Assembly (NCBI RefSeq): GCF_057098645.1
Contig: NZ_CM169472.1
DNA: 64,000 nucleotides
Direction: 5' to 3' (one strand)
Positions 26,586 through 28,761 of this stretch are shown here, piece after piece. A program made the translations under genes and the position numbers. The stretch's first letter is position 1. Each line of letters begins with the position of its first letter. The notes under the pieces are model-generated. The model did not search any database, was not told the origin of the DNA, and saw only the letters and a list, made by a program, of their open reading frames with translations.

Positions 26586-26615
26586 GCCCGCCGTGGTGTT
26601 GCGCCACGGCGGGTT
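26586..26615. terminator. bidirectional stem-loop between convergent SPT-like gene and LptG-like gene
   Basis: CCCGCCGTGG-TGTTG-CGCCACGGCGGG followed by TTTAAT; located between convergent stops. Confidence 0.5.
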
Positions 26616-27694
26616 TAATGTTGTCTGTCATACCAATACACCAGGCTCAACGCCACCAGCACAAACGCTATCGGTAAACCGAGCGCGGTAACAGGTGCGC
26701 TCAACGCAAATAGCAATCCCAGATTGACCATGATTTGATAGCTGATCCAGGTGAGTAAGCCAACGATGACACCTACAGCGAGACGGCTACCCATCCCTGG
26801 CGAGCGCGGGGCACTAAAGGTAAACGGCACAGCCAGCAAAATCATCGCCAGGGTCAGGATGGGTTGCCCCAGTTTTTCCCACAGTGCAAGGCGGTATTCG
26901 CTGCTGGGTTGCCCGGTTTCCTGCAAATAATGGATGTAATGATTAAGCTGACGGACAGAAAAAGTATTCCCCGGCATCGATAGCTCTTCAAGATCCATAC
27001 TGGTGAAGGCCGATTGCCAGGCAAGATTATCTAATGTTTCCAGCGTTTCTTTGCCATTCAGCCATTTTTTATGATTCACACCATGCAGGATCCACGTTTT
27101 GTCGTCTTCAATGGTGGCACTGCGTGCATAAATGTAGGATTCAAGCGAGAGATCGTCGCGATAATGAAATATCTCCACGCCCACCGGCTGGCCCTGCTCA
27201 TTCAGCGATTTCACCGTCACAAATTCATTGCCGCGCCTGGCCCACAGCATATTGCCGGTAATGTCATCGTCCTCCCCCAACGCGGTGGCGGTCGATTTGA
27301 TTTGCAGCGCCTGTTGCTGCAATGGCGACGCCACCCACTCATCTATCGCGCCTAACGAAACAGTCCACAATATCCCGGCAACCAGCGCCACCAGTGCAAT
27401 ACGGAAGATAGAAAACCCCGTGCTGCGAATGGCGGTAAGCTCACTGTTTTTCGATAACTGCCCCAGGCCGACAATCCCTCCTAATAATGCGATAAACGGC
27501 GAAAGCTCCACCAGTGTGCGCGGTAAGGTCATCAGCACCACCATCACCGCCTGGGTCCAGCGATAGCCGCCGGGGCTGACATCATCTAGTTCGTTAATCA
27601 GGTTGAAGGTGGTGAAAAGCGGAAGCAGTAATCCAGCCGCAGCCGTAAAGCCGAGAAACACGTGACGTATCAAATAGCGACTGAAAATATTCAT
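26615..27694 (-). CDS. LptG-like permease (YjgP/YjgQ family)
   Basis: 359 aa from MNIFSRYLIRH...; 6 TM plus periplasmic beta-jellyroll insert; ATGA overlap (27691-27694) with upstream LptF-like gene. Confidence 0.75.
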   Translation of the reverse strand: MNIFSRYLIRHVFLGFTAAAGLLLPLFTTFNLINELDDVSPGGYRWTQAVMVVLMTLPRTLVELSPFIALLGGIVGLGQLSKNSELTAIRSTGFSIFRIALVALVAGILWTVSLGAIDEWVASPLQQQALQIKSTATALGEDDDITGNMLWARRGNEFVTVKSLNEQGQPVGVEIFHYRDDLSLESYIYARSATIEDDKTWILHGVNHKKWLNGKETLETLDNLAWQSAFTSMDLEELSMPGNTFSVRQLNHYIHYLQETGQPSSEYRLALWEKLGQPILTLAMILLAVPFTFSAPRSPGMGSRLAVGVIVGLLTWISYQIMVNLGLLFALSAPVTALGLPIAFVLVALSLVYWYDRQH

Positions 27695-28761
27695 CGGAAG
27701 TATTTCTGCAACAAAGAGAAGTCGCGGGCAATGAGCAGCAGCAAGCCAATCAACATGACCCCTGGTATCAACCACAAACCTGGAATAAGAGGGATCGCGC
27801 CATTAGCCACCAGCGTACGGCAAACATCGCCGCCATAAAAAATGGCAATAAACAGCAACGTCAGTGGCAATAACGTTGAAAATCGTCCCTGCCGCGGTTT
27901 TACCCGACTTAATGAAATGGCCAGCAGCGCCATCAACAATGCGGTCAGGCCACGGCTTTGTCGCCATTGCAGTTCGGCATGATCGGCTGGAAAGACGGAG
28001 CGCGCCAGCTCCGTGACCGATTTCGCTTTGCGTTTGACGTTAGGGCTTTGATCCAGCGGATTCAGATGTAATTGCAGATTACGGTAGATCTGTTCGTTGT
28101 CGTCACGCCCCTGATGATCGAGAAGATAGGCAGTGCCGTTGTGCAACATAACGGTCGGTTTCTCGGGTGATGGGTCAACCACATCAACCGAACGGGCGCG
28201 GAAAATGCGGGTTCGATTGGCAGTAGAAGTATAAATCAGCGCGTCAGTCAGGCGATTATTATCCTGATCAACCGTCTGCGAAAGGATCATTCGTCCGTTA
28301 TCGTTAGTGTTAAATTTCTTTGCCCGCAACTGGCGAACATCCAGCTCCGACTGCGACTGCTGCTCCAGTTGATAAATCTGCGCATAAGCCCACGGACGAC
28401 CATACATCGACAGAAGGGTGACAAAAATACTTAGCGGTATCGCCAGATAAAGAACGGCTTTGTACAAGCGTCCCGGACTGCCCCCCGCCGCAGAGATAGC
28501 GGTAATTTCCGAGTCGGTATACATCTGCCCTAGCGTCACGCCAACTGACACATACAGACCAACAGGTAACAACATCTCCAGTGCAATCAGCACTTTGTAG
28601 AAAACGATATCCAGCACAACATCAAGAGCTAATGTCCCATTTGCCGCTTCGGTCAGATAACGCTGTGCGGAGTAGCTGGCGAAAATAAAGATCAGAAAAC
28701 CGACGATAATCAGCACCAGACGGCGCGTACCACGCATGATGTAGTGTTCAACCAGCTTCAT
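27691..28761 (-). CDS. LptF-like permease (YjgP/YjgQ family)
   Basis: 356 aa, same family architecture; paired with LptG-like gene. Confidence 0.75.
   Translation of the reverse strand: MKLVEHYIMRGTRRLVLIIVGFLIFIFASYSAQRYLTEAANGTLALDVVLDIVFYKVLIALEMLLPVGLYVSVGVTLGQMYTDSEITAISAAGGSPGRLYKAVLYLAIPLSIFVTLLSMYGRPWAYAQIYQLEQQSQSELDVRQLRAKKFNTNDNGRMILSQTVDQDNNRLTDALIYTSTANRTRIFRARSVDVVDPSPEKPTVMLHNGTAYLLDHQGRDDNEQIYRNLQLHLNPLDQSPNVKRKAKSVTELARSVFPADHAELQWRQSRGLTALLMALLAISLSRVKPRQGRFSTLLPLTLLFIAIFYGGDVCRTLVANGAIPLIPGLWLIPGVMLIGLLLLIARDFSLLQKYFR

What the first reader, a model, noticed from the sequence alone, without database searches (positions are those of the whole stretch)
26615..28761. Second LptF/LptG-like permease pair with no cognate ABC ATPase
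Two YjgP/YjgQ-family permeases of about 357 aa, ATGA-coupled like lptF-lptG, sit at the end of the minus-strand operon. No ABC ATPase (Walker B, LSGGQ signature) is encoded in the locus; the nearby P-loop proteins YghR/S/T look kinase-like. A paralogous Lpt-like extractor for a non-LPS lipid, possibly borrowing LptB or another ATPase, would be unusual.
Basis: partly seen in the sequence, partly recalled or inferred. Interest (0 to 1): 0.7.

Follow-up and report, generated by a model that had tools for sequence, protein, structure and literature searches.

The report
Second LptFG pair for sphingolipid export
These two genes are a real second copy of the E. coli lipopolysaccharide-extractor permeases, sitting inside a sphingolipid-synthesis gene cluster and most likely exporting that lipid with the cell's single LptB ATPase, an arrangement already shown in Caulobacter and already drawn for E. 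coli in a 2026 preprint.

Summary
Window 27691-28761(-) and 26615-27694(-) encode an LptF-type (356 aa) and an LptG-type (359 aa) permease joined by an ATGA overlap. No ABC ATPase lies anywhere in the 64-kb window.

They are a second pair. Canonical lptFG is in 5425 of 5426 complete E. coli genomes and is only 28-29% identical. The extra pair is in 4155 of 5426 genomes, and K-12 lost it by an IS5 deletion. It is under purifying selection (dN/dS about 0.08).

The pair converges on aasR-cerR-acpR-spt and lies near yghO (ceramide synthase), the known E. coli sphingolipid cluster. In 80 related loci from several bacterial groups, including Enterobacterales, Pseudomonas and Nitrospirota, the pair sits within 10 kb of these genes wherever enough flank is available.

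The glutamates that dock LptB are conserved, and lptB is single-copy. A 2026 preprint shows that Caulobacter LptF2/LptG2 bind the sole LptB and are needed when sphingolipid is made. It also draws the E. coli UTI89 locus.

In this O145 lineage yghO carries a nonsense codon, so the substrate may not be made.

The parts
27691..28761 (-). lptF2: LptF-type permease, 356 aa
   Evidence: TIGR04407 scores 319 bits against a cut-off of 230. It is 29% identical to K-12 LptF. The AF2 model has pLDDT 81.9 with TM1-3, a coupling helix at 85-91, a beta-jellyroll at 150-232 and TM4-6. The best PDB matches are LptF chains, TM 0.68-0.79. E85 corresponds to LptF E84.
26615..27694 (-). lptG2: LptG-type permease, 359 aa, start overlapping the lptF2 stop (ATGA)
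   Evidence: TIGR04408 scores 309 bits against a cut-off of 240. It is 28% identical to K-12 LptG. The AF2 model has pLDDT 90.6 and its best PDB matches are LptG chains, TM 0.83-0.85. E85 corresponds to LptG E88. The ATGA overlap is seen.
26583..26617 (.). 16-bp-stem GC-rich hairpin between the convergent spt and lptG2 genes; likely a bidirectional terminator
   Evidence: Terminator scan. It lies in the 34-nt gap between the two stop codons.
25408..26580 (+). spt: serine palmitoyltransferase
   Evidence: NF047599 scores 600 bits against a cut-off of 500. The E. coli BL21 orthologue makes 3-oxo-sphinganine (PMC9386255).
25160..25408 (+). acpR: specialised acyl carrier protein
   Evidence: ACP models match. 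The orthologue ECD_02853 was shown to carry 4'-phosphopantetheine (PMC9386255).
24214..25128 (+). epi/cerR: NAD-dependent reductase of the ceramide pathway
   Evidence: Epimerase/SDR family matches. It is listed as 'epi' ECD_02852 in PMC9386255 Fig 9.
22529..24217 (+). aasR: fatty acyl-AMP ligase / acyl-AcpR synthetase
   Evidence: NF006624 scores 872 bits. RefSeq start. The orthologue ECD_02851 was characterised in PMC9386255.
20983..22125 (-). yghO (aca/bCerS-type N-acyltransferase), here a pseudogene with W116 changed to stop at 21778-21780
   Evidence: Translations of the window copy and an intact copy. It is called 'aca: yghO ECD_02850' in PMC9386255. The nonsense allele is shared only with 26 O145-lineage genomes.
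28792..29355 (-). YtfJ-family protein with a hydrophobic N-terminal segment (likely signal peptide), function unknown
   Evidence: TIGR01626 scores 212 bits; PF09695 matches. It is co-located with lptF2G2 in 45 of 80 loci, nearly all Enterobacterales.
29364..30188 (-). orf274: conserved hypothetical protein with no family match
   Evidence: No Pfam or NCBIfam hit. It is present in 44 of 80 loci.
30188..31537 (-). full-length yghQ: MOP/Wzx-type flippase-like membrane protein (candidate inner-membrane flippase for the lipid)
   Evidence: PF01943/PF13440 match, with a weak match to the MOP flippase model. It is truncated by IS5 in K-12.
31583..33086 (-). yghR and yghS: P-loop proteins, weakly dTMP-kinase-like, not ABC ATPases
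33260..33952 (+). yghT: third P-loop paralogue, divergently transcribed

Best explanation
lptF2-lptG2 encode the membrane half of a second Lpt-type extractor dedicated to the sphingolipid made by the adjacent aasR-cerR-acpR-spt/yghO genes.

Proposed path: ceramide-type lipid is made at the cytoplasmic face of the inner membrane. It is flipped, probably by the co-operonic MOP-type YghQ. The LptF2/LptG2 heterodimer then pulls it out of the outer leaflet of the inner membrane into its beta-jellyroll domains.

ATP energy comes from the cell's only LptB dimer, which docks on the conserved coupling-helix glutamates (LptF2 E85, LptG2 E85). Onward passage to the outer membrane probably uses the shared LptA/LptDE bridge.

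Shown here: the paralogy, the fold, the conserved docking motif, the absence of a local ATPase, single-copy lptB, purifying selection, and cross-phylum linkage to spt.

Inferred by analogy with Caulobacter: LptB sharing and sphingolipid as substrate.

Inferred only: the YghQ flippase step and use of LptA/LptDE.

In this O145 lineage the ceramide synthase gene yghO is broken, so the transporter may currently have no normal substrate.
For: 1. Second pair. Canonical lptFG is in 5425/5426 genomes. The paralogues are 28-29% identical to it and occur in 4155/5426 genomes.

2. Functional genes. dN/dS is 0.079 and 0.085 against a 5%-diverged E. coli copy.

3. Context. The pair is convergent with spt and 34 nt away, inside the cluster whose AasR/AcpR/Spt make 3-oxo-sphinganine.

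4. Conserved linkage. Of the 80 loci from one-genome-per-species scanning, 70 have at least one of Spt/AcpR/Epi/AasR/YghO within the fetched flank. All 10 exceptions have less than 5.5 kb of upstream flank. Four metagenomic relatives at 34-46% identity also sit among lipid-head-group genes (lipid kinase; in three also CDP-alcohol transferase), two of them next to spt/ACP/acyl-AMP ligase genes.

5. Separate clades. F2 and G2 of E. coli, Pseudomonas, Azotobacter and a betaproteobacterium are 45-60% identical to each other and 24-31% identical to canonical LptF/G of E. coli and P. aeruginosa.

6. Docking motif. LptF E84 is E in 83/83 F2 sequences and LptG E88 is E in 84/85 G2 sequences. G92 and G96 are invariant. 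The coupling-helix region is among the most conserved stretches between paralogue and canonical protein, at 50-55% against 28% overall; in LptF a TM4-TM5 stretch is equally conserved. Simpson 2016 (PMC5082905) showed these glutamates contact the LptB groove.

7. No ATPase. No LptB, LptA or LptC homologue is in the window, and no stand-alone LptB-like ATPase gene accompanies the pair in the related loci (the ABC hits are the fused exporter next to spt or unexamined genes 5-9 kb away). lptB is single-copy in 5425/5426 genomes.

8. Caulobacter precedent. LptF2 and LptG2 co-purify with each other and with the sole LptB. They can be deleted only when spt or cpgB is absent (preprint).
Against: There is no experiment on the E. 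coli proteins.

E. coli has not been shown to make sphingolipid natively. BL21(DE3), which carries the locus, gave no detectable 3-oxo-sphinganine in empty-vector controls (PMC9386255), so the locus may be silent in the laboratory.

The Caulobacter evidence is a preprint. It consists of pull-downs plus genetics, not a transport assay.

I could not retrieve the Caulobacter sequences, so orthology with CCNA_01213/01214 rests on the preprint's figure.

Residue-level substrate arguments are weak. LptG K34/K40/K41 are replaced by N/D/D, but P. aeruginosa canonical LptG also lacks these lysines.

In this lineage yghO is truncated at codon 116.
Confidence: 0.72

Rival explanations
1. In this particular O145:H28 lineage the system is idle or decaying. 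With yghO truncated, no ceramide is made, and lptF2G2 are intact only because the loss is recent.
For: yghO has W116stop in the window but is intact in other strains. The allele is confined to 26 O145-lineage genomes out of 4530 with yghO. BL21 shows no native product in the laboratory.
Against: All other genes of the locus are intact in the window, and the between-lineage dN/dS is low. Spt/AasR/AcpR could still make long-chain bases. This concerns the current state of one lineage, not what the genes are.
Confidence: 0.15
2. The pair is an alternative or back-up LPS (or modified-LPS) extractor rather than a sphingolipid transporter.
For: Both proteins pass the LptF and LptG equivalog models, and RefSeq names them so. 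Some cationic cavity residues are kept: LptG K62 is R, R136 is K/R, LptF R33 is R, K317 is R/K.
Against: The pair is linked to spt-type genes in every locus with enough flank. It forms clades separate from canonical LptFG. K-12 and about 23% of E. coli lack it with no known LPS defect. At LptG K34/K40/K41 it carries N/D/D, and K34E is lethal in Shigella LptG (PMC6744409). That last point is weakened.
Confidence: 0.07
3. The permeases are powered by something other than LptB, for example the neighbouring P-loop proteins YghR/S/T, or they act without ATP.
For: Three P-loop genes are co-located in Enterobacterales.
Against: YghR/S/T have no ABC signature and no ABC_tran match. They are absent from most Pseudomonas loci and from all Azotobacter, betaproteobacterial and Nitrospirota loci, which keep F2G2. 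The coupling-helix glutamate and glycine that fit an ABC NBD groove are essentially invariant.
Confidence: 0.05

Closest known systems
Caulobacter crescentus LptF2/LptG2 (CCNA_01214/CCNA_01213; CC_1156/CC_1155), the sphingolipid-locus Lpt paralogues
   Same: Both are an extra LptF-LptG pair beside canonical lptFG, encoded within the spt/acp/acyl-ACP-synthetase/reductase/N-acyltransferase locus. Neither locus has an lptB, and each genome has a single lptB. The preprint's Fig 2B draws the E. coli UTI89 locus next to the Caulobacter one.
   Different: The E. coli locus has no LptC2 and no CpgABC head-group genes (no DAGK_cat lipid kinase). Instead it carries YghQ (MOP flippase-like), a YtfJ-family protein, orf274 and three P-loop proteins. 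No E. coli experiment exists. Sequence orthology to the Caulobacter pair was not tested here.
Canonical E. coli LptB2FG(C) lipopolysaccharide extractor
   Same: Same fold and same gene order, with F then G translationally coupled. The coupling-helix Glu/Gly are the same, and both carry beta-jellyroll domains.
   Different: Identity is only 28-29%. The pair is accessory, present in 77% of genomes, and is not next to pepA. The position equivalent to LptF R212 is Ala, and substitutions there (R212G/S/C) in canonical LptF bypass LptC. The Lys cluster in LptG TM1 is replaced by N/D/D. The substrate is inferred to be a sphingolipid.
Sphingomonas wittichii sole LptFG pair, located next to spt
   Same: An LptFG pair positioned in a sphingolipid locus and proposed to move sphingolipid.
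   Different: In Sphingomonas it is the only LptFG and there is no LPS. In E. coli it coexists with the LPS pair and would have to share LptB.

Membership tests
LptF/LptG permease family (YjgP/YjgQ, PF03739) | Full-length match to the curated LptF and LptG models above their cut-offs | tested here: met
   LptF2 scores 319 bits against 230; LptG2 scores 309 against 240. Each scores far lower on the other model.
LptF/LptG permease family (YjgP/YjgQ, PF03739) | Six transmembrane helices with a periplasmic beta-jellyroll between TM3 and TM4 | tested here: met
   AF2 models have pLDDT 81.9 and 90.6. Foldseek top hits are LptF chains (TM 0.68-0.79) and LptG chains (TM 0.83-0.85).
LptF/LptG permease family (YjgP/YjgQ, PF03739) | Conserved coupling-helix glutamate that contacts the LptB groove (LptF E84, LptG E88) | tested here: met
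   E85 in both proteins. Glu is present in 83/83 F2 and 84/85 G2 sequences. The role of these residues is from PMC5082905.
LptF/LptG permease family (YjgP/YjgQ, PF03739) | Physical and functional association with an LptB dimer | not testable with these tools
   Only indirect evidence: no local ATPase, single-copy lptB, and the Caulobacter pull-downs.
LptF/LptG permease family (YjgP/YjgQ, PF03739) | Substrate is lipopolysaccharide | tested here: inconclusive
   Context argues for a sphingolipid. The cavity-residue comparison is not diagnostic.
Sphingolipid-locus LptF2/LptG2 system (as defined in Caulobacter) | An LptFG pair additional to the canonical one | tested here: met
   Canonical lptFG is in 5425/5426 E. 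coli genomes and the extra pair in 4155/5426.
Sphingolipid-locus LptF2/LptG2 system (as defined in Caulobacter) | Encoded within the spt/acpR/aasR/cerR/bCerS locus | tested here: met
   Window annotation and family scans. The linkage is conserved in 70 of 80 loci, and the other 10 are flank-limited.
Sphingolipid-locus LptF2/LptG2 system (as defined in Caulobacter) | No lptB duplicate in the locus or the genome | tested here: met
   The DNA-level search would miss a copy below about 65% identity.
Sphingolipid-locus LptF2/LptG2 system (as defined in Caulobacter) | F2-G2 complex that co-purifies with LptB; deletion tolerated only when sphingolipid synthesis is off | not testable with these tools
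   Experimental criteria. They are shown only for Caulobacter.
Sphingolipid-locus LptF2/LptG2 system (as defined in Caulobacter) | Sequence orthology (same clade) with CCNA_01214/CCNA_01213 | not tested
   Caulobacter sequences were not among the retrieved loci. The Spt proteins here are of the 'BetaP' type.
Self-contained ABC transporter operon (permease plus its own NBD) | A nucleotide-binding-domain gene in the same operon | tested here: not met
   No Walker A plus ABC signature ORF and no LptB/MlaF hit in the 64-kb window.

The most novel reading that the evidence does not exclude
Most natural E. coli (77% of complete genomes, not K-12) run two Lpt extractors off one LptB. The second would export a still-uncharacterised sphingolipid whose head group is built by the enterobacterial-specific YghR/S/T, orf274 and YtfJ-like genes. 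It would work without LptC, because LptF2 naturally carries Ala at the LptF R212 position; canonical LptF mutants at that position (R212G/S/C) bypass LptC. That would mean competition between LPS and sphingolipid export for LptB and the LptA/LptDE bridge.
Probability: 0.25. Interest if true: 0.6.

Novelty: already known. Interest (0 to 1): 0.3.

Why it matters
How bacterial sphingolipids reach the outer membrane was an open question until the Caulobacter work. The E. coli copy puts that system into the organism where Lpt genetics, structures and inhibitors are best developed. If LptF2G2 share LptB and perhaps LptA/LptDE with the LPS pathway, this bears on Lpt-targeting antibiotics and on outer-membrane composition in pathogenic E. 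coli. K-12 work cannot see this, because K-12 deleted the locus. RefSeq's naming of these genes as 'LPS export permease LptF/LptG' is probably a functional mis-annotation present in thousands of genomes.

Tried and rejected
1. Cavity charge. I considered loss of LptG K34/K40/K41 (N/D/D here) as proof of a non-LPS substrate. I rejected it as diagnostic because P. aeruginosa canonical LptG and many LptG-like representatives carry the same 'ELDDV'-type motif.

2. Canonical pair in RM12761. I tried to locate canonical lptFG in the closest genome by guessing coordinates. Both tries landed in islands or a rearranged region. I rely instead on 5425/5426 genomes.

3. Genome scan. It was redone with 7 sequences.

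4. PDB search. A 65-aa fragment around the R212 region found nothing. The full-length alignments were used instead.

5. orf274. Pfam and NCBIfam gave no match.

6. Native E. coli sphingolipid. A literature search found nothing.

7. Caulobacter sequences. I could not obtain them, so no joint phylogeny was made.

8. Linker-fused AF2 pseudo-multimer with LptB. I considered it but did not run it, because the tool returns no interface metrics.
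Full report
**What is there.** The window is E. coli chromosome, 99.9% identical over the queried stretch to O145:H28 strain RM12761. Positions 27691-28761 and 26615-27694 on the minus strand encode proteins of 356 and 359 aa. The stop of the first gene overlaps the start of the second as ATGA.

The upstream protein passes NCBI's curated LptF equivalog model (319 bits, cut-off 230). The downstream one passes the LptG model (309 bits, cut-off 240). Each scores far lower on the other model. Both align end to end with solved LptF and LptG chains.

AlphaFold2 models built on alignments of orthologues have pLDDT 81.9 and 90.6. They show three TM helices, a short coupling helix at 85-91, a beta-jellyroll, then three more TM helices. 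Foldseek places LptF chains first for the first protein (TM 0.68-0.79) and LptG chains first for the second (TM 0.83-0.85).

**It is a second pair, and it is alive.**
- The canonical lptF-lptG of K-12 (next to pepA) is found in 5425 of 5426 complete E. coli genomes.
- It is only 29% and 28% identical to the window proteins.
- The extra pair is found in 4155 of 5426 genomes, always chromosomal and usually single-copy.
- K-12 lacks it because an IS5 element replaced everything from aasR to the 5' part of yghQ.
- Against a copy from a strain 5% diverged at the DNA level, dN/dS is 0.079 for lptF2 and 0.085 for lptG2. This is similar to spt (0.076) and yghQ (0.083), so the genes are under purifying selection.

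**No local ATPase.**
- A six-frame scan finds Walker A motifs within long ORFs only in YghR, YghS and YghT, and no ABC signature near any of them.
- tblastn with LptB and MlaF finds nothing in the window.
- The RefSeq annotation of the matching genome lists no ABC ATPase across the 64 kb.
- YghR/S/T give only weak dTMP-kinase-like and generic P-loop matches.
- lptB itself is single-copy in 5425/5426 genomes at blastn sensitivity.

lptG2 ends 34 nt from the stop codon of a convergent gene, and the two share a 16-bp-stem hairpin. That convergent gene passes the serine palmitoyltransferase model (600 bits, cut-off 500). It is preceded by an acyl carrier protein, an NAD-dependent reductase and a fatty acyl-AMP ligase. 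Just beyond lies yghO.

Padilla-Gomez et al. 2022 (PMC9386255) showed that the BL21(DE3) orthologues AasR, AcpR and Spt together make 3-oxo-sphinganine. They list the reductase and yghO as the remaining two dihydroceramide genes. The Lpt-like pair therefore sits inside the E. coli sphingolipid locus.

**Conservation of the linkage.** A scan of one genome per species returned 80 loci encoding relatives of LptG2. They come from many Enterobacterales genera, Pseudomonas, Stutzerimonas, Azotobacter, Nitrococcus, betaproteobacteria and Nitrospirota.
- An LptF2 homologue lies next to LptG2, immediately upstream wherever it was positioned, in 79 of 80.
- At least one of Spt/AcpR/reductase/AasR/YghO lies within the fetched flank in 70 of 80.
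- All ten exceptions have less than 5.5 kb of upstream flank.
- The median Spt-to-pair distance is 5.4 kb.

Four metagenomic relatives at 34-46% identity also sit among lipid-head-group genes: a DAGK-type lipid kinase in all four, a CDP-alcohol phosphatidyltransferase in three and Tam41 in two. Two of them (L008, L092) also carry spt, ACP and acyl-AMP ligase genes.

Pairwise comparison and a small NJ tree show that F2 and G2 of E. coli, Pseudomonas, Azotobacter and a betaproteobacterium are 45-60% identical to each other. They are only 24-31% identical to canonical LptF/G of E. coli or P. aeruginosa, which group together. F2 and G2 are thus orthologous clades distinct from the LPS pair.

**How it probably works.** Simpson et al. 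2016 (PMC5082905) identified LptF E84 and LptG E88 in the coupling helices as strictly conserved residues that contact the LptB groove. In my alignments the equivalent residue is Glu in 83/83 F2 and 84/85 G2 sequences. The following Gly is invariant, and LptF Y80 and A90 are mostly kept. The coupling-helix window is among the most conserved stretches between paralogue and canonical protein, at 50-55% identity against 28% overall; in LptF a TM4-TM5 stretch is equally conserved.

With no ATPase in the window, no stand-alone LptB-like gene beside the pair in the related loci, and one lptB in the genome, the simplest reading is that LptF2G2 dock the housekeeping LptB. This is what Uchendu, Isom and Klein report for Caulobacter (bioRxiv 10.64898/2026.04.12.717747). 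There, LptF2 and LptG2 co-purify with each other and reciprocally with the sole LptB. The genes can be deleted only in delta-spt or delta-cpgB backgrounds. Their Figure 2B shows the E. coli UTI89 locus alongside. The names LptC2/F2/G2 were introduced in PLoS Pathog 2024 (PMC11324152).

**Upstream and downstream steps (inference only).** The co-operonic YghQ is a MOP/Wzx-type protein. In Pseudomonas loci its place is taken by an MsbA-like fused ABC exporter immediately after spt. Both fit a flippase step before extraction. tblastn found no LptA or LptC homologue in any locus, although that search is insensitive for such small divergent proteins.

**Residue-level observations, with their limits.**
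- *LPS-contact lysines.* Tang et al. 2019 (PMC6744409) list LptG K34, K40, K41, K62, R133, R136 and LptF R33, K317 as LPS phosphate or core contacts, with K34E lethal. In LptG2, K34/K40/K41/R133 become N/D/D/L, while K62, R136, LptF R33 and K317 stay basic. I do not treat this as proof of a different substrate. P. aeruginosa canonical LptG also lacks those lysines, and the 'ELDDV' motif is common among LptG-like representatives.
- *The LptC-bypass position.* The position equivalent to LptF R212 is Ala here and A/S/G/T in other proteobacterial F2 proteins. Canonical LptF of Pseudomonas, Vibrio and Shigella keep Arg. R212G/S/C are the suppressors that let canonical LptF work without LptC (PMC9972910). 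This is a lead for LptC-independent operation and fits the absence of LptC2 outside Caulobacter. It rests on few canonical sequences.

**State of this particular genome.** yghO carries W116stop at 21778-21780. The exact 61-mer with this allele occurs in only 26 genomes, 21 of them labelled O145, out of 4530 that have yghO. Ceramide synthesis is therefore probably blocked in this lineage, although the transporter genes are intact. In addition, BL21(DE3), which carries the locus, showed no 3-oxo-sphinganine in empty-vector controls. The locus may therefore be silent under laboratory conditions.

**Verdict.** The lipid can now be named as a sphingolipid. The idea is not new, however. The system was named in 2024, tested in Caulobacter in 2026, and the E. 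coli locus is drawn in that preprint.

What remains open:
- direct evidence in E. coli;
- the identity of the E. coli lipid and the roles of YghR/S/T, orf274 and the YtfJ-like protein;
- whether the bridge is shared with LPS export.

Noticed in passing
window 21778-21780 (within yghO, 20983-22125, minus strand): yghO, the ceramide-synthase-type N-acyltransferase of the locus, has a W116-to-stop nonsense codon. The exact allele is shared only by 26 genomes, most labelled O145, out of 4530 that carry yghO.
   Followed up: yes
L004 (K-12 NC_000913 3129043-3132408): K-12 lost aasR through the 5' end of yghQ, including lptF2G2, where IS5 now sits between yghO and a truncated yghQ. K-12 work therefore cannot see this system.
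   Followed up: yes
L057 696-2450(-), 11089-12066, 13061-13822 (Pseudomonas marginalis) and sister Pseudomonas loci: In Pseudomonas sphingolipid loci an MsbA-like fused ABC exporter follows spt in place of the enterobacterial YghQ. A YegS/DAGK-type lipid kinase and an OlsC/LpxO-like acyl hydroxylase follow lptG2.
   Followed up: partly
L005, L008, L091, L092 (metagenomic contigs): Distant LptF2G2 pairs sit next to a DAGK_cat lipid kinase. L005, L008 and L092 also have a CDP-alcohol phosphatidyltransferase, L008 and L092 a Tam41-like gene, and L092 a glycerate-kinase-like gene. This set recalls the Caulobacter ceramide-phosphoglycerate pathway and is absent from the E. coli locus.
   Followed up: partly
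window 29364-30188 (-): The 274-aa protein between yghQ and the YtfJ-like gene has no Pfam or NCBIfam match, yet it is conserved in 44 of 80 LptF2G2 loci, nearly all Enterobacterales. It is a candidate unknown step of the pathway.
   Followed up: partly
window 31583-33952: YghR, YghS and YghT are three P-loop proteins with only weak dTMP-kinase resemblance. They accompany the locus in Enterobacterales, and one Pseudomonas MAG has 68-72% identical copies. Their role, perhaps in the head group, is unknown.
   Followed up: partly
window 28129-28131 (codon 211 of lptF2): LptF2 has Ala where canonical LptF has R212, the residue whose G/S/C substitutions bypass LptC. Other proteobacterial F2 proteins have A/S/G/T there.
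   Followed up: partly
window 26583-26617: A 16-bp-stem GC-rich hairpin fills the 34-nt gap between the convergent spt and lptG2 genes and overlaps the lptG2 stop codon. It is a likely bidirectional terminator.
   Followed up: no
protein P0021: One E. coli record encodes a 456-aa protein joining a GspC N-terminal domain to the C-terminal 72% of LptG2. This suggests a deletion fusing the nearby type II secretion locus to lptG2 in that strain.
   Followed up: no
window about 3874-10157 and 16178-17399: By the annotation of the near-identical RM12761 genome, a Flp/Tad-type pilus gene set lies next to an IS3 element, and glcF is annotated as frameshifted.
   Followed up: no
L007 10001-11116: A Logan/NCBI contig has a lone LptG-like gene (34% identical) beside a metallophosphoesterase, with no LptF partner and no spt in 10 kb of flank. 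It is the only relative whose contig gives 10 kb of upstream flank and still shows no LptF partner or sphingolipid gene.
   Followed up: no
L002 4317-4321: The canonical lptF-lptG junction is TGATG, a 1-nt overlap. The paralogue pair uses ATGA, a 4-nt overlap.
   Followed up: yes
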